Virus record (IMG/VR): IMGVR_UViG_3300027969_000101
Location: 1 to 63,203 of that record
Origin: a virus
Taxonomy: Duplodnaviria > Caudoviricetes
DNA: 63,203 nucleotides
Direction: 5' to 3' (one strand)
A program made the position numbers and the translations under genes. This document shows, one piece after another, positions 242-17,242 of the stretch. The notes beneath the pieces are model-generated. The model did not search any database, had not been told where the DNA came from, and saw only the letters and a list, made by a program, of their open reading frames with translations. The stretch's first letter is position 1. Each line of letters opens with the position of its first letter.

Positions 242-246
242 GTTCT

Positions 247-576
247 TTAAGAGCTTCCGCCTTTTACTTCTTTATCATCTGGCTCGTCGTGTTTATTAAT
301 TTTCTTTTCAGCTTCAACACGTTCATACTCAATAGTCTTACCACGTAGGTGTAACACGGTATTAACTTTTTGATTTAACCGAATCAAATCATTGTCCAAC
401 ATACGAATGCGATCTATTAGTGCAATAAGAACAGTATTAGCATCTGAGATAACAGGTTTAACTTCGGTAGTGGCCCACGTCCATACATACTTGATGATAA
501 AACCCATACCAACTGCCATGACAATTGGAAAGCCGTATTTGTTTACTAGTTCTACAACGTCCATTAGAATAGCCAT
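247..576 (-). CDS. Small membrane protein (N-terminal TM helix + coiled coil), paralog of 1113-1394
   Basis: GFPIV..TM segment; LIDRIRMLDNDLIRL resembles LDNRVKTMNHDVIRI in 1113-1394. Confidence 0.6.
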   Translation of the reverse strand: MAILMDVVELVNKYGFPIVMAVGMGFIIKYVWTWATTEVKPVISDANTVLIALIDRIRMLDNDLIRLNQKVNTVLHLRGKTIEYERVEAEKKINKHDEPDDKEVKGGSS

Positions 577-702
577 CCTATGAAGAAGCCAACTAATGCG
601 CCGACTGCCGCGGCCTTGGCTAGATCAGCATCATGCCATAGAGGTTGTGTTTTTAAATATTCTTTTGTAGTTGCTGGTAAACTATCGTACCAATTTTCCC
701 AT

Positions 703-897
703 TTATTCATTGCTATTCACCTTATGTCCTTTTACAAACTGTTCTACAGGGTCCAGCTTGACCAACATGGCCCTGCCGTCAACATTTTTAATTTTAAAAC
801 AATCGCCGGCTTGCCATCCTAGTGCATCTATGTTTAATTCAGGGTCAAATTTAATGCCCCAAGGTTCTAAATCCCAATCGTAATCATAATGTCTCAT
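703..897 (-). CDS. Hypothetical protein
   Basis: ORF in co-oriented minus-strand run. Confidence 0.5.
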   Translation of the reverse strand: MRHYDYDWDLEPWGIKFDPELNIDALGWQAGDCFKIKNVDGRAMLVKLDPVEQFVKGHKVNSNE

Positions 898-1153
898 TAT
901 TCGCCCTCGCCCACTCTGTTGGCCATTTTGGATTAGTCTTTTTCTGTTCGGCTAACATTCTAATCCATTCTTTCTTTACTGCTAAATTATGTTTCATACG
1001 GTCTAATTCAGTGTCTGAATTATCACTGTAAAAAATATAATAAAACGCTATTCCAAATCCAACGCTTAGTAAAAAGTAACCAATATAATCTGAATTTAGA
1101 TTTATAACAAAATTAATCTCTACGAGCATCATTCTTTCCATCAGCTCGGGCAA
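884..1153 (-). CDS. Hypothetical membrane protein (start uncertain)
   Basis: One TM segment; overlaps neighbouring ORFs. Confidence 0.45.
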   Translation of the reverse strand: MPELMERMMLVEINFVINLNSDYIGYFLLSVGFGIAFYYIFYSDNSDTELDRMKHNLAVKKEWIRMLAEQKKTNPKWPTEWARANNETL

Positions 1154-1394
1154 TACGATCTGCGTCCGGACGTAGTCCTAGAGCATTAGATACAATCGTA
1201 TCAATACGTATAACATCGTGATTCATGGTTTTAACGCGGTTATCAAGTGCTGTAATAATACCAGCCATGCCTTTTACAGAGCTTAACACTCCCTGTAATA
1301 GTAGTTTGATTGTTAGATATACGAAATATCCGCCCGCTAATGCCGCTGCCACCGGAAACCCTAGGTCTCCGATAATTTTGAAAATATCGCCCAT
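1113..1394 (-). CDS. Small membrane protein, paralog of 247-576
   Basis: GFPVAAA TM helix; TAAATA late-type motif upstream on minus strand. Confidence 0.6.
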   Translation of the reverse strand: MGDIFKIIGDLGFPVAAALAGGYFVYLTIKLLLQGVLSSVKGMAGIITALDNRVKTMNHDVIRIDTIVSNALGLRPDADRIARADGKNDARRD

Positions 1395-1521
1395 TTTGAT
1401 TCGCTCCGCTCTGGTATAGATATTTAGTAGTTTTTATGCCAAAATACTTGCTTATAAACCTAGAATATGTTTAAATACACTGTACACAAAATTTAGTGTA
1501 TTTTAACAGGAAAGTAAGAAA

Positions 1522-1725
1522 ATGGTAACAGGAAAAGTAAAATGGTTCAATGACGCTAAAGGTTTTGGTTTCATTACTCCGGACAATGGCGGCAATGACT
1601 TATTTGCACATTTTTCACAGATTAACGCTGACGGGTTTAAAAGCCTGAAAGAGGGCCAATCCGTAAGATTTGAAGTAACTATGGGTCAAAAAGGTGAGCA
1701 GGCTAGCAACATTCAGCCAGCTTAA
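1522..1725 (+). CDS. cspA: Cold-shock protein
   Basis: [15 protein letters not shown] (RNP1) and LFAHFS (RNP2) motifs. Confidence 0.97.
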
Positions 1726-1727
1726 AA

Positions 1728-2052
1728 AATTGTTGTAGAAGTCTTAAAGTAAGGCATTCTGGACGCGGGTTCGACTCCCGCCAGGTCCACCATAAAGTAT
1801 ACTCCGATCCGAGTATTCTGGAAGCAAGGCGAAAGCTGAGTGTACTTTATAATGGGCCTGCCATGGTTTCGACAGGGTGAGATAGGATAAAGATCAACAC
1901 GTGGGGTCACGTAAAATACAAAAAACGTAAATGCAAACGCAAATACATTCAAGTACATGCAAGTTGATGTCGCTCTTAATGACGACCAATTTGCACTAGC
2001 TGCCTAAGAAACAGCACTTGCGAGGTAGGACTTACCTTGTCATCAAAACAAC
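1728..2052 (+). ncRNA. ssrA: Two-piece (circularly permuted) tmRNA
   Basis: Acceptor piece with T-arm and CAGGTCC-A-CCA ending 1792 precedes coding piece starting GGGCCTG at 1854 (G3.U70); tag frame 1933-2007 ANANTFKYMQVDVALNDDQFALAA*; outer ends approximate. Confidence 0.93.
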
Positions 2053-2053
2053 C

Positions 2054-2080
2054 AAAAAGGCACCTTCGGGTGCCTTTTTT
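2054..2080 (+). terminator. Intrinsic terminator
   Basis: AAAAAGGCACC-TTCG-GGTGCCTTTTTT. Confidence 0.9.
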
Positions 2081-2153
2081 ATTGACTTCTGGTTAGCACG
2101 GATATATACTTGTGACATGACACATGTCATTTATTAATAAAAGGAAGTTAACT

Positions 2154-2888
2154 ATGAAAAAGCTATTTTTAGCACTTATGATGGCAGTAGGTTTTGCCTC
2201 AGCACACGCCCAGGTAACCGGCAACTTGGGTCTAACATCAGACTATCGTTTCCGTGGTATTAGCCAAAGCCAAAATGCACCAGCAGTACAAGGTGGCGTT
2301 GACTACGCTCACTCAAGTGGTTTCTATGTTGGTAACTGGAACAGTTCTGTTTCAAGCCAATTATATACTAATGGTGCAGGAGTTGAAAGTGATTTGTATG
2401 CAGGATTTAAGAAAGATATTTACAAGGGTCTAACACTTGATGTTGGTTCTTATAACTATTTTTATCCACGTGCTACTACAGCAGGCACTGGTTCGAACTT
2501 TGACACATACGAAGGTTTCTTAGGGTTAGGATACGGTCCAGTTTCAGTTAAGTACAATCGTACTCTAGGTAATAGTTATTTTGGTACAGCTAATGCTCAA
2601 GGTACTCAGTACTATCAAGCAGACGTTGCTTACCCACTACCAATCAAAGGTCTAGAAAAAGTAAGTTTCTTAGCACACGCAGGTCACACCAATGTTGCTA
2701 ACAACAACTCACTGGACTACAGCGATTACAATGTTGGTCTTGGTTACGACTTAAAAGGATGGCAGTTTGCCGCTAAGTATTACACAAATACTAGCATGAC
2801 AAATTCGTTCCAAACAGCTAACACAGTTAGCGGTCAAAAGTTATACAAGAACACAGGTGTATTTTCAGTAACAAAAACATTTGAATAA
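2154..2888 (+). CDS. TorF-family (TIGR02001-like) outer-membrane beta-barrel protein
   Basis: Signal peptide; SDYRFRGISQS..PAVQGGVDY..GFYVGNWNSSV motif; near-terminal Phe. Confidence 0.85.
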   Translation: MKKLFLALMMAVGFASAHAQVTGNLGLTSDYRFRGISQSQNAPAVQGGVDYAHSSGFYVGNWNSSVSSQLYTNGAGVESDLYAGFKKDIYKGLTLDVGSYNYFYPRATTAGTGSNFDTYEGFLGLGYGPVSVKYNRTLGNSYFGTANAQGTQYYQADVAYPLPIKGLEKVSFLAHAGHTNVANNNSLDYSDYNVGLGYDLKGWQFAAKYYTNTSMTNSFQTANTVSGQKLYKNTGVFSVTKTFE

Positions 2889-2906
2889 ATTTCAAATTGT
2901 TTCAAT

Positions 2907-2927
2907 AAAGGCCTTCGGGCCTTTTTT
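2907..2927 (+). terminator. Intrinsic terminator
   Basis: AAAGGCC-TTCG-GGCCTTTTTT. Confidence 0.85.
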
Positions 2928-2930
2928 GTT

Positions 2931-3008
2931 ATTGATTTTTTCTATAAGCGTAATAGAAATAATTATAGCAAAAAACTATTGACTTGGGCATCTAATAGGA
3001 TATATAAT
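2931..3008 (+). promoter_or_regulatory. OxyR-like operator abutting a sigma70 promoter
   Basis: ATTG-N7-CTAT-N7-ATAG (2931-2956) and ATAG-N7-CTAT (2965-2979); TTGACT 2979, TATAAT 3003. Confidence 0.55.
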
Positions 3009-3032
3009 AGTACAAACACACAAGGAGACACT

Positions 3033-3482
3033 ATGTCAATAACATTAAAAAATTTAGAGTCGGCGCTTGCTGGCGAGTCTATGGCTCACATCAAGTATCG
3101 TTACTTTGCAAAGATTGCTCGCGAAGAGGGCTTCGAGGATGTTGCTAAACATTTCGAACACACAGCAGATCAGGAAATCAAACACGCTTGGGGACATTTG
3201 GAATTGCTAATTGGTAAGCCATCAACCCGCGAGTGCTTGGAGAAAGCCATCGAAGGCGAGACCTATGAGTTTACCCACATGTATCCAGATTTTGAACGTT
3301 CAGCTAGACTAGAGGGCAATACTCAAGCGGCTGGGGAAGCAAAACACCAAATTGAAGAAAGTAAAGAACATGCAGAGCAGTTTACCGCAGTTTTAGCAAA
3401 AGCAGAAAAACGATTTGCCGCTTTGAAGAAAGTTGAAGAACGTCATGCTAATGCTTATAAAAATGTTTTGGAGACACTATAA
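3033..3482 (+). CDS. rbr: Rubrerythrin
   Basis: NLESALAGES..YRYFAKIAREEG..QEIKHA..EGETYE..MYP..ESKEHA diiron motifs; AGGAG RBS. Confidence 0.93.
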   Translation: MSITLKNLESALAGESMAHIKYRYFAKIAREEGFEDVAKHFEHTADQEIKHAWGHLELLIGKPSTRECLEKAIEGETYEFTHMYPDFERSARLEGNTQAAGEAKHQIEESKEHAEQFTAVLAKAEKRFAALKKVEERHANAYKNVLETL

Positions 3483-3610
3483 TGGATCACGTATGCATAG
3501 TTTGTGGACATGTCCACGATGAGGAAACTGAAGGCAGATGGGACGAACTCTCAGCAGATTTTACTTGTCCAGAGTGTGGTGTTGGCAAAGATGAATACGA
3601 AGTTGTGTAA
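3482..3610 (+). CDS. Rubredoxin (not in ORF track)
   Basis: MDHVCIVCGHVHD...WDELSADFTCPECGVGKDEY: two CxxCG motifs; translationally coupled to rbr. Confidence 0.88.
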   Translation: MDHVCIVCGHVHDEETEGRWDELSADFTCPECGVGKDEYEVV

Positions 3611-3681
3611 ACTTTCTTAGGGGCTAAGGCGTTATATATATGTAGGGGTAGAAATTCCTACTTAACCAAAAAGGATATATC

Positions 3682-3885
3682 ATGAAATTGATCGCAACTT
3701 TAATGGCAACCTTGTTTGCCGCAACTGTGTTCGCCGCTGAGCCAGCTAAAGCTCCAGCAACTCCAGCTTCAGCACCAGCTAAGGCCGAAGTTAAGAAGGA
3801 CGAAAAGAAGCCTGCAAAAAGTGAGCCTGCAAAGAAAGACGCACCTAAAGCAGACGCAAAACCAGCTACACCAGCCGCTAAGTAA
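3682..3885 (+). CDS. Secreted Ala/Lys/Pro-rich low-complexity peptide
   Basis: Signal peptide followed by PAK/APA repeats; AGGA RBS. Confidence 0.7.
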   Translation: MKLIATLMATLFAATVFAAEPAKAPATPASAPAKAEVKKDEKKPAKSEPAKKDAPKADAKPATPAAK

Positions 3886-4152
3886 TCTTAGTTTAGATGA
3901 CAATGATGATCTCATTATTAATGATGAGATCACATTTGGCCGTAATCGACGAGCAGAAGATTTTGGTAAACTAGTCCATGAAGATGAGTTATCGGATCAT
4001 GTAAAATTTCGGTTATGGCTAGCTAGACAATTAGCCATGAAGAAGTACCAAGAAAAGTGGGGATAAAATCTCACTTTTCTTGTTAGGTTTTACTTCTTAT
4101 AAATTCGGTGGCAAAACTAATAACCTGTTTTTGCCACATATCAATACTAGTA

Positions 4153-4364
4153 TTGACAAGAAGACATATATACAATACAATAAAGATTAGTTAACCACTA
4201 AGGCATAAATAACTTGATGAAGTTAGCCAAAAATGGTTGACGGGATTGCTGAAAGGCAATATAATAGAAACAAGTTAGCAAACAAGGTGTCCGACAGTGT
4301 TGTAGAAATACAACAAAAAGAATTACAGAAAGTTGTTGACAAGGGTGTTGAAAGACACTATAAT
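4153..4364 (+). promoter_or_regulatory. Three tandem sigma70 promoters
   Basis: TTGACA-17-TACAAT (4153), TTGACG-17-TATAAT (4237), TTGACA-17-TATAAT (4336). Confidence 0.85.
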
Positions 4365-4423
4365 TAACACAAGACGCTAGCATTCCGCTAGTAAATTTTA
4401 AAGAAGAGTAAACGAGAAACAAA

Positions 4424-4573
4424 ATGCAATCAAACGTTAAACATCAGCAATTTAATACGATGCCTAGACTGGCAGGCGTTATAGCCTGTTCTTGGTTATC
4501 GATTAATAGCGGAAGTTTATCATATGATCGTACACCAGAGATTACCCAGGGGTCCCGGAGGACTGTAATGTAA
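4424..4573 (+). CDS. Putative attenuator leader peptide (49 aa, all 20 amino acids, 40 distinct codons)
   Basis: MQSNVKHQQFNTMPRLAGVIACSWLSINSGSLSYDRTPEITQGSRRTVM*; 3' end lies in the antiterminator hairpin. Confidence 0.7.
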   Translation: MQSNVKHQQFNTMPRLAGVIACSWLSINSGSLSYDRTPEITQGSRRTVM

Positions 4574-4631
4574 CTTAAACCTTACATAACAAACTTCAAG
4601 GACCCTAGGATTAAAAACCCTGGGGTTTTTT
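4546..4631 (+). terminator. Attenuator: antiterminator (4546-4609) versus terminator (4600-4631)
   Basis: GGACCCTAGG (4600-4609) pairs either with CCTGGGGTTT plus U-tract or with CCAGGGGTCC (4546-4555). Confidence 0.75.
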
Positions 4632-4636
4632 GTTTT

Positions 4637-4825
4637 GTGGAAAAGGAAAAGATGGAACAGATAGATTATACAAAATTGAATGAACGAATTGTTGAACAGG
4701 CTTATGAAACTGCTTTTGGAGAAATGTCCAAAGAACAGCTTCAAAAACTTATTCAAGATAAGTTTGAACGTGCTAGAAAATATCACGAAGCGTTGAACAA
4801 CTGTCCAACATTTAGTGTAAACTAG
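4637..4825 (+). CDS. Hypothetical protein (start probably 4652)
   Basis: ORF right after attenuator; AAGGA RBS before ATG 4652. Confidence 0.5.
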   Translation: MEKEKMEQIDYTKLNERIVEQAYETAFGEMSKEQLQKLIQDKFERARKYHEALNNCPTFSVN

Positions 4826-5090
4826 AGTAAGCGAAAGGTTGCCCAAGGGCAGTCGTAGATCGCAAAGTGCAATAGGAAACGAGATCCTAGCCCGCACTTA
4901 AAACATGGGTAAATGGGCGGACTAGTGGATGGCATTCCCTCTTGTGGGAAGAAAATACTAGTTATTAAAGCATATTCCGAAACTAGAATGTTTAGGGGAT
5001 AAGGCCACAAGCCGAGTATGCTTTAATAAACACTCTTCACCTCCGCCTACGACGCGGTTGACATCATAGAAGGAGAGTGTTACAAATTAT

Positions 5091-5173
5091 GGATGTGCTA
5101 GGCATTGGAGAGCCTAAGTGGCTGTAACCCACCCGTTAATTCTGTGTAAGTTCAACTCTTACCGCATCCACCA
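5091..5173 (+). tRNA. tRNA-Tyr(GTA), atypical
   Basis: GGATGTG/CGCATCC stem, CTGTAAC loop, encoded CCA. Confidence 0.8.
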
Positions 5174-5179
5174 TATTTT

Positions 5180-5253
5180 TCCTCTGTAGTTAAATGGTAT
5201 AACAATCGGCTGATAACCGGTCATTACAAGTTCGATTCTTGTCGGAGGAACCA
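5180..5253 (+). tRNA. tRNA-Ile(GAT)
   Basis: Cloverleaf, CTGATAA loop, CCA. Confidence 0.9.
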
Positions 5254-5262
5254 TAGTTTAAT

Positions 5263-5354
5263 GCCAGCGAGACTTGGTAGTCAGAGAGGTCTTATATACC
5301 TTTTAGCGCCAGATTAGCGTTCTTGAGAGGGTTCGATTCCCTCCGCTGGTACCA
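5263..5354 (+). tRNA. Atypical tRNA with TAT anticodon (Ile?) and long variable arm
   Basis: GCCAGCG/CGCTGGT, 4-nt D loop, CTTATAT loop, T-arm, CCA. Confidence 0.7.
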
Positions 5355-5358
5355 GTTT

Positions 5359-5418
5359 TAGGATAGCAACAGCAAATTTAAAAATTCTACTTTTAATGGA
5401 AAAAAAGATGCTATCCTG
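5359..5418 (+). ncRNA. ACAGCAA-stem RNA copy 1 (Lys-UUU anticodon stem-loop cargo)
   Basis: TAGGATAGCA/TGCTATCCTG stem; TTCTA-CTTTTAA-TGGAA. Confidence 0.75.
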
Positions 5419-5426
5419 TTTTATAC

Positions 5427-5501
5427 ACTGTCGTCGTCTAGTGGCTAGGACGCTACCCTTTCAAGGTGGAGAAGCGGGATCGATACCCGTCGACAGTACC
5501 A
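5427..5501 (+). tRNA. tRNA-Glu(TTC), atypical T loop
   Basis: CTTTCAA loop; ATCGATA T loop; CCA. Confidence 0.85.
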
Positions 5502-5505
5502 ACAT

Positions 5506-5580
5506 GCCGTTGTAGCTCTCTGGGAGGGTAACTCGTTGTCTGCGAGACTTAGGTGGGTTCGATTCCCATCAGCGGCGCCA
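5506..5580 (+). tRNA. tRNA-Asp(GTC), atypical anticodon loop
   Basis: TTGTCTG loop, G73, CCA. Confidence 0.8.
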
Positions 5581-5587
5581 AATTTAT

Positions 5588-5665
5588 TGTCCGAGAGCAA
5601 TCATGGTGTAGGCGCTTCGCTGTTAACGAAGAATGAGCTAGGTTCGATCCCTAGTCGGACAGCCA
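5588..5665 (+). tRNA. tRNA-Asn(GTT)
   Basis: CTTCG-CTGTTAA-CGAAG, G73, CCA. Confidence 0.85.
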
Positions 5666-5672
5666 AACAATT

Positions 5673-5747
5673 GGGGGCAGTAGTGGGCTACGGAGTTGCC
5701 TTGCAAGCATCTTGTCTAGAAGGGTTCGATTCCCTCGGCCTCCACCA
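5673..5747 (+). tRNA. tRNA-Ala(TGC), reduced D-arm
   Basis: G3.U70, CTTGCAA loop, CCA. Confidence 0.7.
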
Positions 5748-5751
5748 ATTT

Positions 5752-5808
5752 TAGGATGCGAACAGCAAATTTAAAAATTCAACTTTTAATTGAAAAATAA
5801 GCATCCTG
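5752..5808 (+). ncRNA. ACAGCAA-stem RNA copy 2 (Lys-UUU anticodon stem-loop cargo)
   Basis: TAGGATGC/GCATCCTG; TTCAA-CTTTTAA-TTGAA. Confidence 0.75.
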
Positions 5809-5827
5809 TTTTATAAAAGGAAATCTA

Positions 5828-5956
5828 ATGGCACACAAGCAACAAGGTATTCTAACACGTAGTCCTCAATGGTGGAAACATCTTAAGGATTGGAAACGTG
5901 TGTTCTGGAAATCAGAACGTCAAGCACAAAAGAAAAATATCAACAAAGGAGAATGA
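5828..5956 (+). CDS. Small basic Trp-rich protein (42 aa, not in ORF track)
   Basis: MAHKQQGILTRSPQWWKHLKDWKRVFWKSERQ...; AAGGA RBS. Confidence 0.6.
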   Translation: MAHKQQGILTRSPQWWKHLKDWKRVFWKSERQAQKKNINKGE

Positions 5957-6042
5957 TATGAAACGTTCAGGTAAACGTTAGTGTCATCTTTGACCCCGTA
6001 TGGTCTTAGATGGCACGTAAAAGAAATTAATTACGAATCCAT

Positions 6043-6117
6043 CCACGCTAAACTTTAGTGGCGAAGTACCCGGCTCTTAACCGGACTAACTGAGTTCGAT
6101 TCTCAGAGCGTGGACCA
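6043..6117 (+). tRNA. tRNA-Lys(CTT)
   Basis: CCACGCT/AGCGTGG, CTCTTAA loop, CCA. Confidence 0.85.
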
Positions 6118-6120
6118 TAT

Positions 6121-6195
6121 GGGGGTATAATTCAAAGGCTAGAATAGCCGGCTTTTAACCGGTCTATCAGGGTTCGAGTCCCTGTGCCCCTACCA
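6121..6195 (+). tRNA. tRNA-Lys(TTT)
   Basis: GCCGG-CTTTTAA-CCGGT, CCA. Confidence 0.92.
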
Positions 6196-6297
6196 TAAGC
6201 AAACACATTGTCGCAGTACGCCGAACCGTACTTGATTCTCATGTTGGAACCTAGCATGAAACTAGGGAGATGCGATTTCATCAGTGTGTTTACTTAT

Positions 6298-6372
6298 GGT
6301 AACGTAGCATAATGGTTGTGCACCTCCTTCATACGGAGCAAGGTGTGAGTTCGAATCTCACCGTTACTACCA
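6298..6372 (+). tRNA. tRNA-CAT (elongator Met or Ile2)
   Basis: TTCATAC loop, cloverleaf, CCA. Confidence 0.8.
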
Positions 6373-6393
6373 AATTAAAACATAAGTAATTTT

Positions 6394-6936
6394 ATGTTTA
6401 ATAAAGATGCTTTTAGCAACGGTCAGATAGATAGTAAGCTATGGTTATGTCGCGAGCTCGAAAATCTAGGCTGGACTAGTAACCTAACACATATATATGG
6501 TGGATGGTATGGTATACTGGCTTTTTTGTTATTGAGTAGAGAGAAGTTTAAAGTTGGTCGTATTGAAAGTTTTGATGTTGATCCAACTTGCAAAGAATAT
6601 GCAGATGCAATTAATGAAAACTGGGTTGTTAATAACGGAACATTTTCTTCTTATACACTAGATTGTAATCAAGAAGTTCCTAATATTGCTGACCTTATAA
6701 TTAATACCAGCACTGAACATTTTGAAGGTATGGATTGGTTTAATGAAATACCAAGAGGTACACGGATAATTTTACAAGGTAATAATATGCCGCACGATGA
6801 CCATTTTATTTGCTCGAATAACTTGCAAGAATTTGTTGATCGTTATAAACTACAGACTATTATATATCAAGGTAGTTTAGATTTTAATTACCCTAGTTGG
6901 AATTTTTCCAGATATATGGTAATAGGTATTAAATAA
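6394..6936 (+). CDS. Class I SAM-methyltransferase-like protein
   Basis: IYGGWYG glycine loop, SFDVD, INTSTEH; common in large aquatic phages. Confidence 0.6.
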   Translation: MFNKDAFSNGQIDSKLWLCRELENLGWTSNLTHIYGGWYGILAFLLLSREKFKVGRIESFDVDPTCKEYADAINENWVVNNGTFSSYTLDCNQEVPNIADLIINTSTEHFEGMDWFNEIPRGTRIILQGNNMPHDDHFICSNNLQEFVDRYKLQTIIYQGSLDFNYPSWNFSRYMVIGIK

Positions 6937-7187
6937 AGATATTAGTAAGAAACTCAAAGTACTATAATGTTCCGTAAGGGAAATGCATCTGCCGGAAGCG
7001 GGTGCATGGAGGGGTTATAAACCCCGGCATTTGCCAATGACGAGGTGATAGTGTTTACGGCATGAATTCACAGTTGGCAGAAGTACTCCATGTTAGGCAG
7101 GACAAAATAGAGCAGGCACTGTAAAGCCTGGGCGGCCTCAGACTCATAAGTCAAACCAGATCTCTTAGAGTTTCTTACTAATATCTT
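6936..7187 (+). ncRNA. Unassigned ~250 nt structured RNA closed by a 20-bp perfect stem
   Basis: AAGATATTAGTAAGAAACTC/GAGTTTCTTACTAATATCTT, GC-rich internal hairpins, no ORF. Confidence 0.6.
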
Positions 7188-7191
7188 CTAT

Positions 7192-7267
7192 GCGGGTGTA
7201 GCTCAGCTGGTAGAGCGCCACGTTGCCAACGTGATTGTCGTCGGTTCGACCCCGATCACCCGCTCCA
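7192..7267 (+). tRNA. tRNA-Gly(GCC)
   Basis: Canonical cloverleaf, U73, CCA. Confidence 0.95.
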
Positions 7268-7271
7268 GCGT

Positions 7272-7336
7272 ACTCCTTATATGACAGTTGAACACAGTCA
7301 TATAAGGGAAGGACAGTGTTCAACCTGTCCGAGAGT
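7272..7336 (+). ncRNA. Kissing-loop double hairpin RNA
   Basis: Loop GTTGAACA is the exact complement of second loop TGTTCAAC. Confidence 0.6.
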
Positions 7337-7338
7337 TT

Positions 7339-7467
7339 TAGGATACTAACAGCAAATTAAAATTCGCCTTCTAAGCGAGTGGTCGTTGGTTCGAGTCCAA
7401 CATTTGATCAAGCCTAAAAAGCAGTCAAATTAGCTCAGTTGGTAGAGCACTTAAAAAATGTATCCTG
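7339..7467 (+). ncRNA. ACAGCAA-stem RNA copy 3 carrying circularly permuted tRNA-Arg(TCT) (YrlA-like)
   Basis: TAGGATAC/GTATCCTG stem; order anticodon arm, T arm, loop-closed acceptor stem, D arm. Confidence 0.85.
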
Positions 7468-7477
7468 TTTTTATTGT

Positions 7478-7551
7478 TGGGGCATTGTGTAATGGTAGCA
7501 CAACAGACTTTGACTCTGTTAGTTTAGGTTCGATCCCTAATGCCCCTGCCA
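7478..7551 (+). tRNA. tRNA-Gln(TTG)
   Basis: ACAGA-CTTTGAC-TCTGT, CCA. Confidence 0.92.
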
Positions 7552-7560
7552 AGTTTCTAT

Positions 7561-7636
7561 GGTGTCTTTAGTGTAGTGGCCTGCACCCTGCTCTGTGAAA
7601 GCGGTAGTACCGGATCGATACCGGTAAGGCACCCCA
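7561..7636 (+). tRNA. tRNA-His(GTG)
   Basis: G-1:C73 8-bp acceptor stem, CTGTGAA loop. Confidence 0.88.
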
Positions 7637-7654
7637 ATTTTTAAGGAGAGTATC

Positions 7655-8122
7655 ATGCCGTGGATTGAAAATGTAGCAGCCAGTGATATCCCAATTGGAT
7701 TTCATCACGATGCTGGCCCTAACAGTATGCTGATCAGCATTGTTGATCCGGCAAGTTGGCGACCTGAAGCCAAGCATGAATTCAAAGAGCGTCACAACTT
7801 TGAGTTCTTGGATGTAGAAGAAAAGGACGAAGTTTTAGAAGAAGCTATGAAGTGTAGTCATGAGCAGGCCGCAGAGCTTGTTCGATTGTTACAACACGCA
7901 TTAGACTGTCGTATGAATGTGGTAGTTCACTGCTACGCTGGTATTTGCAGATCGGGTGCGGTTTGTGAGGTTGGAGTCATGATGGGCTTCAATGATACTG
8001 AGCGTTTTCGTAGTCCAAATCTCTTGGTTAAGCATCGCATGATGAAGCATTTGGGTTGGACTTACGATGCGGATGAAAAGCCAAATATTGATGATTGGCG
8101 CACTTTTAGGCCGGTTGATTGA
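7655..8122 (+). CDS. Protein tyrosine/dual-specificity phosphatase-like protein
   Basis: VHCYAGICRS = HCxxGxxRS catalytic loop. Confidence 0.8.
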   Translation: MPWIENVAASDIPIGFHHDAGPNSMLISIVDPASWRPEAKHEFKERHNFEFLDVEEKDEVLEEAMKCSHEQAAELVRLLQHALDCRMNVVVHCYAGICRSGAVCEVGVMMGFNDTERFRSPNLLVKHRMMKHLGWTYDADEKPNIDDWRTFRPVD

Positions 8123-8176
8123 CAGTGTTGCCTGTTTAATGTATAATACTTGTATACTAACAAGCAAGGATATACT

Positions 8177-8879: not shown

Positions 8880-9485
8880 ATGCCTAGTGTATTTTTAGTA
8901 AGCGACACACACTTTGGACACACAGGTGTCTGCCGCTTCACACGTAACGACGGTTTTACAAAATTAAGGCCATGGACCGATCCAGATGAAATGGACGAGG
9001 CAATGGTCAAAGCCTGGAACGAACGGGTAAAGCCCACTGACAAGGTCTATCACTTAGGTGACGTTGTAATTAATCGTAAGGCTTTAGGTATTTTACGTAG
9101 GTTAAACGGAGACAAAGTTTTAATTCGTGGTAACCACGATATCTTTAAAGACGAGGACTATCGTGCTCACTTTAGAGAACTTAGGGCTTATCACGTTATG
9201 AACGGTATGATATTAAGTCATATTCCGTTACACAGTGACAGCTTAGGTCGGTTTGGTGTTAACATCCACGGACACTTACACGCAAATCGTGTTAAGAAAG
9301 CTCGGGGTGTTGATGCTAAGACCGGGGAAGTCTTATACAGCGATGAAATCGATCCTCGATATCATTGTGTATGCGTGGAACAAACTCCAGACTTTGCTCC
9401 TATCTTATTTGAAGACGTATTAAAGCGTATTGAAGAAGAAGGTGGTAGCGTTGGATTTAAGTCCGGCAACGGTCCTACTATGTAA
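8880..9485 (+). CDS. Calcineurin-like metallophosphoesterase
   Basis: SDTHFGH, HLGD, GNHD, HGHLH motifs. Confidence 0.9.
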   Translation: MPSVFLVSDTHFGHTGVCRFTRNDGFTKLRPWTDPDEMDEAMVKAWNERVKPTDKVYHLGDVVINRKALGILRRLNGDKVLIRGNHDIFKDEDYRAHFRELRAYHVMNGMILSHIPLHSDSLGRFGVNIHGHLHANRVKKARGVDAKTGEVLYSDEIDPRYHCVCVEQTPDFAPILFEDVLKRIEEEGGSVGFKSGNGPTM

Positions 9486-10106: not shown

Positions 10107-10182
10107 TTGACATAGTGCGCTAGATGTTATATAATACGTACATACACTGATAATACAGCAGTATAAACGTTCTTTAAAAATT
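10107..10182 (+). promoter_or_regulatory. Sigma70 promoter followed by rrn-type boxA
   Basis: TTGACA-17-TATAAT (10107-10135); small hairpin then CGTTCTTTAAAAATT (10168-10182). Confidence 0.7.
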
Positions 10183-10533: not shown

Positions 10534-10619
10534 GGAGTAGAAGCATCAATGGTGATGCAGTGGACTGTAAATCCGCCGTCGTAATGGCACGCCTGGTTCG
10601 ATCCCAGGATACTCCACCA
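10534..10619 (+). tRNA. tRNA-Tyr(GTA)
   Basis: CTGTAAA loop, long variable arm, CCA. Confidence 0.88.
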
Positions 10620-15200: not shown

Positions 15201-15251
15201 TAGGATGCTAACAGCAATTCACAATCTTATCCAAGAAGAAAACGCATCCTG
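15201..15251 (+). ncRNA. ACAGCAA-stem RNA copy 4
   Basis: TAGGATGC/GCATCCTG; small TCTT-ATCCAAG-AAGA hairpin. Confidence 0.7.
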
Positions 15252-15280
15252 TTTATTTTAAGCAGTTTAGCCAAAATGTA

Positions 15281-15344: not shown

Positions 15345-15507
15345 TAGGATCGGTACAGCAACATTCATATACTATGAATCGTTGGACCCTATGGTAATAA
15401 CTGGAGTTGAAGGGCTTGCCTGGAGATGTTGAAGGTTATTATTGGAATAGACCAACAAGCACAGAGTGATGGCCTGTGTAAAATAAAAGCAGTCAACAAC
15501 GATCCTG
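15345..15507 (+). ncRNA. ACAGCAA-stem RNA copy 5 (long insert)
   Basis: TAGGATCG/CGATCCTG; internal hairpins. Confidence 0.7.
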
Positions 15508-15515
15508 TTTAGTCA

Positions 15516-15752
15516 TAGGATGACTACAGCAATTTAAAACATACTGACCTTAATGCTATAGAAGGTGGTCGCAGGACACAGTAGAAATACTGTTCTAGAA
15601 ATAGACACCGATGGAATAGACGACAGCATGGAAAGACATACTATGTTTCTAACGCAGACACAAGTTTAGATAGTCAACGTGAATCGTTGATAGGGTCTGG
15701 GTGCTATAATTGGCCAGACCAGAATACTAAAAAAATTGGCACACTCATCCTG
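15516..15752 (+). ncRNA. ACAGCAA-stem RNA copy 6 (multi-hairpin insert)
   Basis: TAGGATGA/TCATCCTG; ACAGTA-GAAA-TACTGT, TCAACG/CGTTGA, GGTCTGG/CCAGACC hairpins. Confidence 0.7.
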
Positions 15753-15761
15753 TTAAAGTTT

Positions 15762-15818
15762 TAGAATGTTAACAGCAACTTTAAATTTCAACTATAATCG
15801 AAAATAAAATACATTCTG
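15762..15818 (+). ncRNA. ACAGCAA-stem RNA copy 7 in 5' UTR of DUF2828 gene
   Basis: TAGAATGT/ACATTCTG (compensatory G-C to A-T change) ending just before the RBS. Confidence 0.7.
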
Positions 15819-15832: not shown

Positions 15833-17242
15833 ATGAACGCATTTGTAACAGCAGTAGCAAACCAAGAAGCCCGTACCCAAAACGGTATGAAGGCACGTAA
15901 GTCAACAGCTTCGGCTTGTGTTGACTTGTTCTATAACATTGGTGCAAGCCGTGGCAAGGACATCACAGGCGACTTTACAGCCGCTTATGTAGAAAACTCA
16001 GACGTAGCACTACGCATCGCACAATGGGCACGTGATGTCCGTGGTGGTGCAGGTGAACGTCAACTGTTCCGCGACATTCTAGTACATCTAGAAAAGCGTG
16101 ACCCAGACGCCGCTTTGGCTCTGTTGAAGAAGGTTCCAGAAGTGGGCCGTTGGGATGACATCTTTGTCTTCACTTCACCAGTGTTGAAGTCAGCCGCTTA
16201 TACCATGTTGGGCGATGCCCTACGTGCTAAGAACGGTTTGGCTGCAAAGTGGACTCCTCGTAAGGGTAAAATCGCGGCTGAAGTGCGAGCATTCTTTGGA
16301 ATGTCTCCTAAGCAGTACCGCAAGTCATTGGTAACAATGACCACAGTTGTTGAAACTCAAATGTGTGCAGGAGATTGGGACAACATCAACTTCAGTCACG
16401 TGCCAAGTGTTGCTTCACGCAACTATAAGAAGGCATTCAACCGTCACACAACTCTGTTCGCAGAATATGTGGCCAAGTTGGTAAGTGGTGATAAGACTGT
16501 TAAGGTTAACGCCAACGCAATCTTCCCACATGATGTGCTGAAGGGAATCGCTCACAGCTACACCAAGCTGGACAAGACAGAAACTGACCATGTGATTGCA
16601 CAATGGGACGCTCTGCCTAACTACGTAGGTGACGCAAGTATTCTACCTCTAGTTGACGTATCAGGTTCTATGACTACCCCAACAGGTGGTAAGGGCGATG
16701 TGCGTTGTTTGGACGTTGCAGTTAGCCTTGGCTTGTACTTGGCAGATAAGAACAAGGGTGCGTTCAAGGACACATTCTTGACTTTCTCCAGCAAGCCAGA
16801 ACTTGTAACCCTAAAGGGTAACATTGTTCAAAAGGTGGAACAAATGTCTAAGAGCAACTGGGAAATGAGCACTAACTTGCATGCCGCTATGGACAAGATC
16901 CTAAGCGTTGCAGTTAAGGGTTCTGTACCAGCTAGCGACATGCCAGCCATGTTGTTAATCTTGTCAGACATGCAGTTTGACCAATGCGCCCGTTACGACG
17001 ACAGCGCAATGCAAATGATCGAACGCAAGTTCGCAGATGCAGGTTACACTGTGCCGCAGATTGTTTTCTGGAACCTAAACAGTACCGGTAACGTGCCTGT
17101 GGCGGCTGACAAGAGTGGTGCCGCATTGGTAAGTGGATTTAGCCCATCAATCATGACTAGCTTGCTAGCCGCTGATATGGATCAATTCACTCCAGAAGGC
17201 ATCATGCTCAAGACTGTAATGAGTGATCGTTACGCTCTGTAA
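15833..17242 (+). CDS. DUF2828-family / TROVE(Ro60)-like protein with C-terminal vWA domain
   Basis: RDVRGGAGER, GRWDD, AKWTPR, MIDAS DVSGSM, LSDMQFD, IVFWNL. Confidence 0.8.
   Translation: MNAFVTAVANQEARTQNGMKARKSTASACVDLFYNIGASRGKDITGDFTAAYVENSDVALRIAQWARDVRGGAGERQLFRDILVHLEKRDPDAALALLKKVPEVGRWDDIFVFTSPVLKSAAYTMLGDALRAKNGLAAKWTPRKGKIAAEVRAFFGMSPKQYRKSLVTMTTVVETQMCAGDWDNINFSHVPSVASRNYKKAFNRHTTLFAEYVAKLVSGDKTVKVNANAIFPHDVLKGIAHSYTKLDKTETDHVIAQWDALPNYVGDASILPLVDVSGSMTTPTGGKGDVRCLDVAVSLGLYLADKNKGAFKDTFLTFSSKPELVTLKGNIVQKVEQMSKSNWEMSTNLHAAMDKILSVAVKGSVPASDMPAMLLILSDMQFDQCARYDDSAMQMIERKFADAGYTVPQIVFWNLNSTGNVPVAADKSGAALVSGFSPSIMTSLLAADMDQFTPEGIMLKTVMSDRYAL

What the first reader, a model, noticed from the sequence alone, without database searches (positions are those of the whole stretch)
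5359..5808. Stand-alone tRNA-Lys(UUU) anticodon stem-loop mimics: possible anticodon-nuclease decoys
Seen: copies 1 and 2 each present a 5-bp stem with a canonical 7-nt loop CU-UUU-AA (TTCTA-CTTTTAA-TGGAA at 5385-5401; TTCAA-CTTTTAA-TTGAA at 5778-5794), flanked by A-rich linkers. The stems differ while the loop is identical to that of the phage tRNA-Lys at 6121. Copy 3 has CU-UCU-AA (Arg) at the same position; copy 4 has a weaker CCA (Trp-like) loop and copy 7 a degenerate one. Established: tRNA-Lys(UUU) is the target of PrrC and PARIS AriB; tRNA-Arg is the target of colicin D. Inference: protein-protected anticodon decoys that titrate or report on defence nucleases, or that recruit tRNA-modifying enzymes.
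Basis: partly seen in the sequence, partly recalled or inferred. Interest (0 to 1): 0.85.

Follow-up and report, generated by a model that had tools for sequence, protein, structure and literature searches.

The report
Small Ro-partner RNAs with anticodon-like loops
The two hairpins are real and conserved, but they are the variable tips of a family of small phage RNAs that lie beside a Ro60-like protein gene and resemble both bacterial Y RNAs and the unexplained Class I RNAs of social amoebae.

Summary
Observation confirmed. The only 5-bp/CUUUUAA hairpins in the 63-kb window are the two flagged ones and the real tRNA-Lys(UUU) anticodon arm. Relatives keep the loop while the stem covaries.

They are not stand-alone. 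Each is the variable module of one of seven small RNAs on the + strand. All seven share a covarying terminal helix, an invariant single-stranded ACAGCAA and a CUGU 3' end. Four copies lie directly upstream of a DUF2828/DUF7788 gene, whose model has the Ro60 fold. Copy 3 carries a YrlA-type tRNA-like domain.

The same RNA-gene pairing recurs in phages of Listeria, Bacillus, E. coli, Mycobacterium, Vibrio and Stenotrophomonas. A model built only from other viruses finds copies 1, 2, 4 and 7 at E 1e-10 to 1e-8.

Best reading: a new class of Y-RNA-like partners of a Ro60-like protein. The anticodon-nuclease decoy idea is untested, and anticodon-like loops occur in only some members.

The family also resembles Dictyostelium Class I RNAs (Rfam RF01414, below threshold). 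The best scores come from a giant-virus array beside a DUF2828 gene. Dictyostelids encode DUF2828 orthologs.

The parts
5359..5418 (+). Copy 1 (60 nt). Terminal helix TAGGATAGCA/TGCTATCCTG, ACAGCAA at 5369-5375, variable hairpin 5385-5401 with loop CUUUUAA, 3' CUGU.
   Evidence: Model R1, built from other viruses, scores it 44.3 bits, E 2.7e-9. RF01414 18.6 bits. It lies 4 nt after the ARAGORN tRNA at 5263-5354 and 8 nt before tRNA-Glu at 5427.
5752..5808 (+). Copy 2 (57 nt). Helix TAGGATGC/GCATCCTG, ACAGCAA at 5762-5768, hairpin 5778-5794 with loop CUUUUAA.
   Evidence: R1 48.7 bits, E 1.6e-10. RF01414 24.0 bits. It starts 4 nt after tRNA-Ala 5673-5747.
7339..7467 (+). Copy 3 (129 nt). Same helix and ACAGCAA. 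The insert is a hairpin with loop CUUCUAA (7362-7380), a T arm, a closed acceptor-like hairpin and a D arm, which is the YrlA architecture.
   Evidence: Rfam YrlA RF02553 39.5 bits (gathering score 69), E 8.3e-8. Rfam tRNA model 33.2 bits on 7351-7409.
15201..15251 (+). Copy 4 (51 nt), short member with a weak 4-bp hairpin (loop AUCCAAG).
   Evidence: R1 42.4 bits, E 9e-9. RF01414 21.3 bits.
15345..15507 (+). Copy 5 (163 nt), same ends and motif, large structured insert of unknown kind.
   Evidence: No Rfam match. A promoter-like site GTGACA-17-TATAAT lies at 15281-15309.
15515..15753 (+). Copy 6 (239 nt), same ends and motif, large structured insert of unknown kind.
15762..15818 (+). Copy 7 (57 nt). 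Helix TAGAATGT/ACATTCTG, a compensated G-C to A-U change relative to the other copies. It ends about 1 nt before the AAAGG ribosome-binding site of the next gene.
   Evidence: R1 42.4 bits. RF01414 17.4 bits.
15833..17242 (+). Gene for a 469-aa DUF2828 + DUF7788 protein with a Ro60-like HEAT ring plus vWA fold. It is the presumed protein partner.
   Evidence: Pfam 96.5 and 166 bits. phrog_850 'RNA-binding protein'. AlphaFold2 pLDDT 93.4, pTM 0.92. The top 13 Foldseek PDB matches are all Ro60/Rsr/TROVE.
6121..6195 (+). Genuine phage tRNA-Lys(UUU). Its anticodon loop (6152-6158) is identical to the loops of copies 1 and 2.

Best explanation
Copies 1 and 2 are the two smallest members of a seven-member family of small non-coding RNAs. 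These RNAs are the Y-RNA-like partners of the phage's Ro60-like protein (DUF2828/DUF7788).

All members share three features: a 7-10 bp helix formed by the RNA's two ends, an invariant single-stranded ACAGCAA immediately 3' of the 5' strand, and G(U) after the 3' strand. Across viruses the termini read 5'-AGR...YCU-GU-3'.

Inferred, by analogy with Ro60 and Y RNA: this constant part is the protein-binding module, and the region between is a variable effector module. In copy 3 that module is a YrlA-type tRNA-like domain. In copies 1 and 2 it is reduced to one 5-bp hairpin with the anticodon loop sequence of tRNA-Lys(UUU).

Inferred from spacing and from the lack of terminators: copies 1-3 are transcribed with the tRNA array and released by tRNA-end processing. 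Copies 5-7 share a promoter with the protein gene.

Inferred, weakest step: the anticodon-like hairpin presents a tRNA piece to some anticodon-loop-binding factor, while the RNA is held on, or gates, the Ro-like ring.
For: Shown:
1. The family is real. In the window plus 80 close relatives (1.02 Mb) there are 335 stem+ACAGCAA elements on the gene strand, 24 on the reverse strand and 26 in the reversed control.
2. The pairing with the gene holds across very distant phages, with protein identity of 33-48%. BUCT-ZZ01 has 3 elements, Bacillus FADO 5, Felix-O1-like VpaE1 4, Listeria P100 3, Mycobacterium Kingsolomon 3, Vibrio nt-1 2 and Stenotrophomonas DLP6 1. All are on the gene strand.
3. In a second diverse set, 28 of 80 loci have strict elements on the gene strand, against 4 (reverse) and 3 (control).
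4. A covariance model built from 33 elements of other viruses finds copies 2, 1, 4 and 7 at 48.7, 44.3, 42.4 and 42.4 bits. The next best hit in the window is 17.3 bits.
5. In the terminal helix, 7 of 7 pairs show compensatory changes. This is partly circular, because the elements were picked by requiring a stem.
6. The protein has the Ro60 fold: TM 0.53-0.62 to Xenopus, human and phage phiLo Ro60 over about 515-540 columns, E 2e-7 to 7e-6. A profile search of PDB puts four Ro60 sequences on top, at marginal E 0.024-0.042.
7. Copy 3 and Kingsolomon element 2 hit Rfam YrlA at 39.5 and 37.9 bits.
8. RNA-library contigs from 4 lake or freshwater metatranscriptome runs cover copies 1 and 3 and the stretch 15265-16041, which spans copies 5-7, as well as the gene. 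Summed depth rises from 1.9-31 to 82-691 at the bin starting 15325, just after the promoter-like site at 15281-15309.
9. No terminator-like site lies on the + strand between 4490 and 7918.

From papers (passages read):
- Y RNAs are encoded next to Ro60 on the same strand, and at least one per genome has a tRNA-like domain (PMC4201824).
- A phage Ro60 binds two upstream Y-like RNAs (PMC12135203).
- In Listeria phage CKA15 the DUF2828 homolog CKA15_055 is present in virions, and highly transcribed non-coding regions lie upstream (PMC12282133).
Against: No binding, cleavage or processing data exist for any member.

The conserved motif ACAGCAA differs from the Ro-binding motifs in print: GNCGAAN0-1G in bacteria and CGAA in phiLo. 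Pfam does not call TROVE on the protein.

No element was found within 3.5 kb of the gene in Cronobacter phage GAP32 or Ochrobactrum phage OC. In the diverse set, 52 of 80 loci had no strict element within 5 kb on the gene strand.

Contigs cannot show discrete small RNAs, their ends or their strand, and DNA carry-over in RNA libraries is not excluded.

The CKA15 region named as most abundant (26,236-26,727) is not an ACAGCAA element. The elements lie at 25,290-25,552, and I could not confirm that this is one of the paper's other two regions.
Confidence: 0.7

Rival explanations
1. Anticodon-nuclease decoys. The CUUUUAA and CUUCUAA hairpins are competitive substrates or inhibitors that soak up host tRNA-Lys or tRNA-Arg anticodon nucleases, perhaps shielded by the Ro-like protein. 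This could be the specific job of the variable module inside the Y-like scaffold, so it does not exclude the best explanation.
For: The loops are letter-identical to those of the phage's own tRNA-Lys(UUU) and tRNA-Arg(UCU). The UUU loop is kept in 10 of 12 aligned relatives while the stem covaries, which implies selection on loop sequence. CU-NNN-A-type heptaloops are enriched about 20-fold over shuffles. A CUUUUAA or CUUUUAC hairpin recurs in unrelated phages: FADO_1, BUCT-ZZ01 element b, and L172. The context is a 34-tRNA array plus tmRNA, and jumbo-phage tRNA sets are read as counter-measures to tRNA cleavage (PMC7824862, passages). That PrrC and PARIS AriB target tRNA-Lys and colicin D targets tRNA-Arg is recalled, not checked here.
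Against: Only 6 of 60 unique short members in diverse viruses have such a loop, with triplets AAU, GCU, GUU, UUU, UUU and GCU. P100 and VpaE1 short members have other loops. Other recurrent loops look like D loops (UUGGU, AUGGUAA), not anticodons. In copy 3 the hairpin sits where YrlA has its variable arm, not an anticodon arm. No nuclease gene, cleavage data or phenotype is linked to these RNAs.
Confidence: 0.12
2. Cis-acting elements rather than trans-acting RNAs. They would be punctuation or processing signals within tRNA transcripts, and translational operators in the leader of the DUF2828 gene that the protein binds for autoregulation, with no function as free RNAs.
For: Copies 1-3 abut tRNAs by 4-11 nt. 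The last copy before the gene ends next to or on the ribosome-binding site or start codon in the window (copy 7), DLP6 (TCAATCT-GGAGA), nt-1 (the 3' strand covers the ATG), L148 and L150.
Against: The elements occur in arrays of 3-6, upstream or downstream of the gene, and up to 10 kb away. The large tRNA-like and other inserts are hard to explain as punctuation. They are not scored as intrinsic terminators. Leader autoregulation would still require the protein-RNA contact of the best explanation.
Confidence: 0.1
3. The anticodon likeness is incidental. Only the terminal helix and ACAGCAA matter, the insert needs any small A/U-rich hairpin, and CUUUUAA is what A/T-rich sequence happens to give.
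For: The window is 38% G+C. Many short members have no 7-nt-loop hairpin: 38 of 82 and 31 of 60. Loops differ widely among phages.
Against: Shuffled inserts give CU-NNN-A loops in 0.5-1.1% of cases, against 10-41% observed. The loop sequence is held while the stem covaries. The same loop appears in independent lineages.
Confidence: 0.08

Closest known systems
Bacterial Y RNAs (YrlA, YrlB, Yrn1) with Rsr/Ro60
   Same: Small RNAs are encoded next to a Ro60-fold protein on the same strand, often several per genome. A terminal helix is formed by the two ends and carries a conserved motif near the 5' strand. One member per genome has a tRNA-like domain with a T arm, closed acceptor and D arm. Copy 3 scores 39.5 bits on RF02553.
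   Different: The motif is ACAGCAA, not GNCGAAN0-1G. The protein is Pfam DUF2828/DUF7788, not TROVE. The YrlA gathering score is not reached. The short members carry single tRNA-arm-like hairpins. Binding is untested.
Thermus phage phiLo Ro60 with Yrl1 and Yrl2 (PMC12135203, passages read)
   Same: A phage-encoded Ro60-fold protein has two Y-like RNAs just upstream that it binds. The structures 9KOP and 9L5Y are among the top fold matches.
   Different: The phiLo RNAs were picked by a CGAA motif in a bulge, and that protein is a canonical TROVE protein. No anticodon-like modules are described there.
Dictyostelium Class I RNAs (Rfam RF01414; PMC7919456, passages read)
   Same: A multi-copy family of about 42-65 nt. 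It has a 6-bp terminal helix in which the structure, not the sequence, is conserved. An 11-nt motif directly after the 5' strand aligns with the viral ACAGCAA in the cmscan outputs. The start is (A)AG and the end is CUGU, and the rest is variable. All 8 short viral elements that hit it match the full model at 17.4-24.0 bits, and a giant-virus array reaches 27.9-34.5 bits.
   Different: Every score is below the gathering score of 41.5. Class I RNAs were reported as absent outside Dictyostelia. Their known direct binder is the RRM protein Rnp1A/CIBP. No link to a DUF2828 protein is in print: no paper holds 'Class I RNA', 'Y RNA' and 'Dictyostelium' together, and a search for DDB_G0281913 or Q54T94 listed two papers, on proteasomes of autophagy-deficient cells and on mTORC1/AMPK responses (listing only, texts not opened).
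tRNA-Lys(UUU) anticodon arm
   Same: A 5-bp stem and a 7-nt loop C-U-UUU-A-A, identical to the phage tRNA-Lys loop.
   Different: Copies 1 and 2 have no D arm, T arm or acceptor arm. Neither ARAGORN nor the Rfam tRNA model calls them. The stems are A/U-rich and include a G-U pair.
Anticodon-arm mimics in regulatory RNAs, such as the E. coli thrS operator (recalled, not checked here)
   Same: An isolated hairpin that copies a tRNA anticodon arm in order to bind a tRNA-recognising protein.
   Different: Those are mRNA leader elements bound by a synthetase. Here the hairpin sits inside a free Y-like RNA and its ligand is unknown.

Membership tests
DUF2828-associated ACAGCAA RNA family (defined here) | Terminal helix, ACAGCAA 0-4 nt after the 5' strand, and G after the 3' strand, scored by a model built without the window or its close relatives | tested here: met
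   R1 was built from 33 elements of other viruses. Copy 2 scores 48.7 bits, copy 1 44.3, copy 4 42.4 and copy 7 42.4 (E 1.6e-10 to 9e-9). The next hit scores 17.3 bits.
Y RNA (Ro60 partner RNAs) | Encoded near a Ro60 ortholog on the same strand | tested here: met
   Copies 4-7 lie 15-632 nt upstream of the Ro60-fold gene, and copies 1-3 lie 8.4-10.5 kb upstream on the same strand. Chen et al. used a 4-kb criterion.
Y RNA (Ro60 partner RNAs) | Published Ro-binding motif (GNCGAAN0-1G, GGUCCGA or CGAA) in the terminal helix region | tested here: not met
   All 7 copies have ACAGCAA instead. The motifs are from PMC4201824 and PMC12135203.
Y RNA (Ro60 partner RNAs) | Physically bound by the Ro60-type protein | not testable with these tools
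   No RNA-protein predictor or binding data were available.
Rfam YrlA (RF02553) | Gathering score of 69 bits | tested here: not met
   Copy 3 scores 39.5 bits, E 8.3e-8 in a 161-nt search. The T arm, acceptor hairpin and D arm align, but the 5' and 3' Ro-binding part does not.
Rfam Dicty_Class_I_RNA (RF01414) | Gathering score of 41.5 bits | tested here: not met
   Window copies score 24.0, 21.3, 18.6 and 17.4 bits. The best viral element, in L141, scores 34.5 bits, E 7e-5.
Rfam Dicty_Class_I_RNA (RF01414) | Short terminal helix, conserved motif directly after the 5' strand, CUGU 3' end, length of about 60 nt | tested here: met
   All 7 window copies end in CTGT, and ACAGCAA is invariant. Short copies are 51-60 nt. 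Features are from PMC7919456. The DUSE promoter feature does not apply to phages.
tRNA | Cloverleaf with acceptor, D, anticodon and T arms | tested here: not met
   Copies 1 and 2 are not called by ARAGORN or by the Rfam tRNA model. Only an anticodon-arm-like hairpin is present.
Ro60/TROVE proteins (for the neighbouring gene) | HEAT-repeat ring plus C-terminal vWA domain | tested here: met
   The AlphaFold2 model has pLDDT 93.4. The top 13 Foldseek PDB hits are all Ro60/Rsr/TROVE, with full-length alignments and TM up to 0.62.
Ro60/TROVE proteins (for the neighbouring gene) | Pfam TROVE sequence model | tested here: not met
   Only DUF2828 and DUF7788 (plus weak VWA_2) are found in the window protein and in 6 distant phage homologs. 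A single-sequence phmmer search against PDB found no Ro60.

The most novel reading that the evidence does not exclude
The ACAGCAA RNAs and the Class I RNAs of dictyostelid amoebae are one RNA family. Their common partner is the DUF2828-type Ro60 paralog, forming an RNP shared by phages, giant viruses and eukaryotes. This would give Class I RNAs, reported as Dictyostelia-specific and of unknown mechanism, a candidate protein partner: DDB_G0281913 in D. discoideum. It would also give the very large DUF2828 family (6240 clusters at 50% identity) its RNA ligand.

Evidence:
- The two families share the same architecture and the same motif.
- A giant-virus MAG contig, with a fused eukaryote-type topoisomerase II as neighbour, carries a tandem array of at least 6 units of 44-55 nt right after its DUF2828 gene. 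Four units score 27.9-34.5 bits on RF01414, at E 7e-5 to 3e-3.
- That viral protein is 44% identical to the D. purpureum DUF2828 protein.
- Orthologs were listed for dictyostelid species of eight genera: Dictyostelium (D. purpureum, firmibasis, dimigraforme, discoideum, citrinum), Polysphondylium violaceum, Acytostelium subglobosum, Heterostelium album, Tieghemostelium lacteum and Cavenderia fasciculata.

Against:
- Every score is below Rfam's threshold.
- The published pull-down with one Class I RNA found Rnp1A, GuaB, NdkC and DDB_G0281243, not DDB_G0281913.
- DUF2828 also occurs in Physarum, Naegleria, chytrids and oomycetes. No Class I RNAs were reported outside Dictyostelia, and Physarum was among the genomes that study searched.
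Probability: 0.5. Interest if true: 0.9.

Novelty: new variant of a known kind. Interest (0 to 1): 0.75.

Why it matters
DUF2828 proteins are among the most widespread unexplained proteins of large phages: 711 of 50,697 phage records carry one, across hosts from Listeria to Mycobacterium. One homolog is packaged in virions (PMC12282133).

A defined, easily recognised RNA partner family turns 'RNA-binding protein, function unknown' into a testable Ro/Y-type RNP. It also supplies ready model systems: P100/A511, Felix-O1-like phages, SPO1-like Bacillus phages and mycobacteriophages.

The modules look like single tRNA arms or whole tRNA elbows and sit inside tRNA arrays. This points to a role in the phage-host contest over tRNAs, and decoying of anticodon nucleases is one concrete version of that role.

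If the link to Dictyostelium Class I RNAs holds, a 20-year-old orphan RNA class gains relatives, a candidate protein and a mechanism to test.

Tried and rejected
- Megablast of 5000-8000 against named phages gave no match.
- A single-sequence phmmer search of the protein against PDB gave nothing useful.
- The ESM Atlas returned only the protein's own family.
- Papers not held: Avesson 2011, Aspegren 2004, Burroughs & Aravind 2016 and Sim et al. 2020. What they say on Class I-binding proteins or on phage TROVE systems was therefore not seen.
- Supplements were closed. Table S2 of PMC4201824, which lists its 22 phages, could show whether DUF2828-type mycobacteriophage RNAs were already listed as YrlA.
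- My first scanner allowed G-U pairs freely and picked wrong 3' partners. It was replaced.
- The relaxed motif regex required A or T before the motif. It therefore missed elements such as FADO_1, which was seen.
- Alignment A1 misplaced the FADO_1 hairpin. It was redone without that sequence.
- GAP32 and Ochrobactrum phage OC have no element within 3.5 kb.
- The strict scan listed no gene-strand element in any of the 15 loci named GVMAG. A scan with a relaxed motif on both strands then found L141 (gene strand) and L100 and L102 (opposite strand).
- The hyper-abundant CKA15 region 26,236-26,727 is not an ACAGCAA element.
- DDB_G0281243, the protein of unknown function pulled down with a Class I RNA, is not the DUF2828 ortholog, which is DDB_G0281913.
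- The 'ACAGCAA' paper search was swamped because 'phage' matched 'macrophage'.
- Some window bins had no RNA-contig cover: 6484-6904 and 14062-14482 in runs X3 and X4, and 10694-11114 in X1, X3 and X4. This is not used as evidence.
- A possible promoter inside copy 7, TTAACA-18-TATAAT, is not kept in relatives and was set aside.
- Pairing of ACAG with the 3' CUGU tail was considered. It was dropped because other phages end in CUGG or CAGU.
Full report
**1. What is in the sequence**

The window is a 63-kb fragment of a low-G+C (38%) virus record. IMG/VR relatives of it reach about 300-356 kb. ARAGORN finds 33 tRNAs and a tmRNA between 1.7 and 15 kb.

The two flagged hairpins are exactly as described: TTCTA-CTTTTAA-TGGAA at 5385-5401 and TTCAA-CTTTTAA-TTGAA at 5778-5794. 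The only other 5-bp/CTTTTAA hairpin on either strand is the anticodon arm of the real tRNA-Lys(UUU) at 6147-6163. Block shuffles give 0.15 such hairpins per window.

RNAfold on each copy alone prefers a competing all-A-U hairpin. The hairpin is 96.7% paired, 2 of its 5 pairs show double changes, and the covariation score is 0.367 against 0.074 in shuffles, with 0 of 500 reaching it. FADO_1 was left out because it was misaligned.

**2. The hairpins are modules of a larger repeat**

Seven copies lie on the + strand: 5359-5418, 5752-5808, 7339-7467, 15201-15251, 15345-15507, 15515-15753 and 15762-15818.

All seven begin (T/A)AGGAT, or AGAAT in copy 7. All have ACAGCAA 0-2 nt after a 7-10 bp 5' strand, and all end with the complementary strand followed by GT. 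The helix covaries between copies: AGC/GCT, GC/GC, AC/GT, CG/CG, GA/TC, and AGAATGT/ACATTCT in copy 7.

The inserts range from 28 to about 215 nt. Copy 3's insert has a hairpin with the tRNA-Arg(UCU) loop CUUCUAA, a T arm (GTTGG-TTCGAGT-CCAAC), a closed acceptor-like hairpin and a D arm (AGCTCAGTTGGTAGAGCA). Rfam scores it 39.5 bits on YrlA (gathering score 69; E 8e-8 in that small search) and 33.2 bits on tRNA. In that layout the CUUCUAA hairpin occupies the place of YrlA's variable arm.

**3. The neighbour is a Ro60-fold protein**

Copies 4-7 lie directly upstream of ORF 15833-17242, which is Pfam DUF2828 + DUF7788 and phrog_850 'RNA-binding protein'. An AlphaFold2 model built on a 92-sequence alignment has pLDDT 93.4 and pTM 0.92. 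Its best 13 PDB matches are all Ro60/Rsr/TROVE chains from Xenopus, human, Thermus phage phiLo and Deinococcus. They are aligned over about 500-540 columns, with TM up to 0.62 and E from 2e-7 to 1e-4. Isolated vWA domains follow only at E of 0.01 or more. A profile search of PDB puts four Ro60 sequences first, at marginal E 0.024-0.042.

By sequence the protein is not TROVE. Some annotators already call homologs 'Ro-like' on HHpred evidence.

**4. The RNA-gene pairing is general**

In the window plus 80 close relatives (86-94% protein identity, 1.02 Mb), a scanner for a net stem of at least 6 bp plus ACAGCAA finds 335 elements on the gene strand. The reverse strand gives 24 and reversed sequence gives 26.

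In named phages whose protein is only 33-48% identical, elements of the same build flank the gene. Their helices are entirely different in sequence.
- BUCT-ZZ01: three upstream.
- Vibrio phage nt-1: one after a tRNA and one over the start codon.
- Stenotrophomonas DLP6: one over the ribosome-binding site.
- Bacillus FADO: five upstream.
- Felix-O1-like VpaE1: four downstream, inside its tRNA array.
- Listeria P100: three upstream.
- Mycobacterium Kingsolomon: three downstream, in a high-G+C genome.

GAP32 and Ochrobactrum phage OC showed none within 3.5 kb.

In a second, diverse set of 80 viral contigs, 28 loci have strict elements on the gene strand, against 4 (reverse) and 3 (control). Over 56 elements with distinct helices the termini read 5'-A(36/56) G(40/56) R(49/56) ... 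C(40/56) U(36/56), then G(48/56) U(32/56). All 7 pairs of the helix show compensatory changes, but these elements were selected for having a stem.

The non-circular test is a covariance model built from 33 elements, none from the window or its close relatives. It finds copies 2, 1, 4 and 7 at 48.7-42.4 bits (E 1.6e-10 to 9e-9) in a filter-free search of the whole window. The next hit scores 17.3 bits.

Four of the seven named phages that carry elements have one member of about 125-130 nt with T and D arms (window copy 3, FADO_2, VpaE1_4, King_2). King_2 scores 37.9 bits on YrlA.

**5. Expression**

Contigs from four lake or freshwater metatranscriptome runs cover copy 1 (5357-5502), copy 3 (7338-7469 and 7336-7513), the stretch 15265-16041 that spans copies 5-7, and the gene. 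Summed depth rises from 1.9-31 to 82-691 at the bin starting 15325 and reaches 53-4973 over the gene. A near-consensus promoter lies at 15281-15309 and a terminator-like site at 17365-17382.

Contigs cannot show RNA ends or strand, and DNA carry-over cannot be excluded.

For Listeria phage CKA15, the paper reports three highly transcribed non-coding regions within 2 kb upstream of the DUF2828 homolog CKA15_055. It finds that protein in virions (20 peptides) and itself suggests Y RNAs (PMC12282133, passages and section 8). The ACAGCAA elements lie at 25,290-25,552 of that genome, where nothing is annotated. The one region for which the paper gives coordinates (26,236-26,727) is not such an element.

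**6. How far the anticodon likeness goes**

One search scanned the window, its 80 close relatives and eight named-phage loci, giving 82 unique short elements. Of these, 44 have a hairpin of at least 4 bp with a 7-nt loop, and 18 of the 44 read CU-NNN-A(A/C). The triplets are UUU, UGA, GCA, GUA, CGA, UGU, UUC and GCU. Shuffled inserts give 1.1%. For copies 1 and 2 the script chose the competing hairpin, so these two are not among the 18.

In the diverse set, 29 of 60 unique short elements have such a hairpin and 6 have CU-NNN-A-N (triplets AAU, GCU, GUU, UUU, UUU, GCU), against 0.5% of shuffles. CUUUUAA or CUUUUAC recurs in FADO_1, BUCT-ZZ01 element b and L172. Other loops recur too, notably UUGGU and AUGGUAA, which resemble D loops, and UAGGAAA.

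So the loops are neither random nor universally anticodon-like. Short members seem to carry single tRNA-arm-like hairpins.

**7. Mechanism**

Shown: a conserved RNA family, its genomic coupling to a Ro60-fold protein, a YrlA-like member, and selection on the copy 1/2 hairpin and its loop.

Inferred from Ro60/Y RNA biology (PMC4201824, PMC12135203; passages read): the helix plus ACAGCAA is the protein-binding module, and the insert is the effector module.

Inferred from spacing and the absence of terminators: release of copies 1-3 by tRNA processing.

The ligand of the anticodon-like hairpin is unknown. The decoy idea gets support only from context and from loop identity.

**8. The link to Dictyostelium**

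In e-value mode, Rfam's best non-tRNA family was Dicty_Class_I_RNA (RF01414) for every short element that hit it, and each hit covered the full model:
- window copies: 24.0, 21.3, 18.6 and 17.4 bits;
- P100: 23.1 and 19.1 bits;
- VpaE1: 19.7 and 17.9 bits. The third short VpaE1 element, with TCAGCAA, did not hit.

Class I RNAs are described as having a 6-bp terminal helix conserved in structure only, an 11-nt motif right after the 5' strand, an (A)AG start, a CUGU end, a length of about 60 nt and many gene copies. They were reported as absent outside Dictyostelia (PMC7919456, passages).

A giant-virus MAG contig (L141) has a fused eukaryote-type topoisomerase II next door. It carries a tandem array of at least 6 units, AGAUUGC-AA-UACAGCAA-...-GCAAUCU-GU, immediately after its DUF2828 gene. 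The array runs to the contig end. Four units score 34.5, 31.5, 31.2 and 27.9 bits, at E 7e-5 to 3e-3. Two other GVMAG loci have elements on the opposite strand.

The L141 protein is 44% identical to D. purpureum DICPUDRAFT_91051. Orthologs with DUF2828 + DUF7788 are listed for D. discoideum (DDB_G0281913, XP_640495.2), D. firmibasis, D. dimigraforme, D. citrinum, P. violaceum, A. subglobosum, H. album, T. lacteum and C. fasciculata. The window protein is 33% identical to the D. discoideum one over 449 residues.

Against the link:
- Every score is below the gathering score.
- The known direct binder is Rnp1A.
- The pull-down's protein of unknown function is DDB_G0281243, not DDB_G0281913.
- DUF2828 also occurs in Physarum, Vannella, Naegleria, chytrids and oomycetes.

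No paper in the library holds 'Class I RNA', 'Y RNA' and 'Dictyostelium' together. A search for DDB_G0281913 or Q54T94 listed two papers on unrelated topics; I saw only the listing.

**9. Verdict**

It misses the main point, which is that they are members of a widespread Y-RNA-like family tied to DUF2828-type Ro60 proteins.

This is a new variant of a known kind. It also opens a testable cross-kingdom link to Class I RNAs.

Noticed in passing
L141:6493-6829 (IMG/VR giant-virus MAG contig; DUF2828 gene at 4989-6491): A tandem array of at least 6 units of 44-55 nt (stem AGATTGC/GCAATCT, TACAGCAA, CTGT end) runs to the contig end. These give the best RF01414 scores seen (27.9-34.5 bits). The neighbour gene is a fused type II topoisomerase.
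   Followed up: yes
window 15762-15832; L001:3938-3990; L091:5965-6005; L148:4922-4968: The last element before the DUF2828 gene ends next to or on the ribosome-binding site or start codon (for example TCAATCT-GGAGA in DLP6, and the 3' strand covering the ATG in nt-1). This suggests that the protein may repress its own translation through a Y-like operator.
   Followed up: partly
window 7398-7428 and 15485-15500: Copies 3 and 5 share a second motif, AAAAGCAGTCAA. It lies in the acceptor-like hairpin loop of copy 3 and near the 3' strand of copy 5. Copy 6 has AGTCAAC. Its meaning is unknown.
   Followed up: no
L128, L137, L143, L150, L153, L096:3162-3217 and others: Many short members in other phages carry hairpin loops with UUGGU or AUGGUAA, which resemble a tRNA D loop, rather than anticodon-like loops. 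Related contigs share UAGGAAA loops.
   Followed up: partly
L098 (Listeria phage cka15, OR088597.1 26,236-26,727): The region that the CKA15 paper reports as taking up to about 67% of phage transcripts is not an ACAGCAA element. It looks like a separate, unclassified non-coding RNA of about 490 nt between tRNA genes.
   Followed up: partly
window 6937-7190: An 18-nt inverted repeat (GATATTAGTAAGAAACTC ... GAGTTTCTTACTAATATC) encloses about 215 nt of G+C-richer sequence just before tRNA-Gly. There is no Rfam match at gathering threshold. It is possibly another structured RNA.
   Followed up: no
window 5263-5354; 15058-15131; 10534-10616: ARAGORN calls a 92-nt 'tRNA-Ile(UAU)' at 5263-5354 that the Rfam tRNA model does not report. 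Conversely, Rfam's tRNA model hits 15058-15131 (48.5 bits) and 10534-10616 (33.4 bits), which ARAGORN does not call.
   Followed up: no
window 1680-2098: A two-piece (permuted) tmRNA is present: RF04321 121 bits and RF01850 115.5 bits. ARAGORN reports the tag peptide ANANTFKYMQVDVALNDDQFALAA.
   Followed up: no
window 4336-4364, 8119-8147, 10107-10135, 11620-11648, 14694-14722: Five perfect TTGACA-17-TATAAT promoters on the + strand punctuate the tRNA region. They form part of a repeated promoter cassette (family D12).
   Followed up: no
window 8880-9485, 13259-13864, 13966-14532, 17497-18441, 18416-18877: Protein genes are interspersed with the tRNAs and Y-like RNAs. They include a phosphoesterase (phrog_547), two 2OG-Fe(II) oxygenase-like proteins, a weak PP-loop ATPase-like protein (NAD synthase/QueC, below cut-off) and a GNAT acetyltransferase. 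These are candidate RNA-modifying or RNA-repair functions.
   Followed up: partly
L093 (Cronobacter phage GAP32): The DUF2828 gene lies directly after an annotated RNA ligase gene. In VpaE1 and P100 it borders the tRNA array. This is consistent with a tRNA-repair or tRNA-surveillance setting.
   Followed up: no
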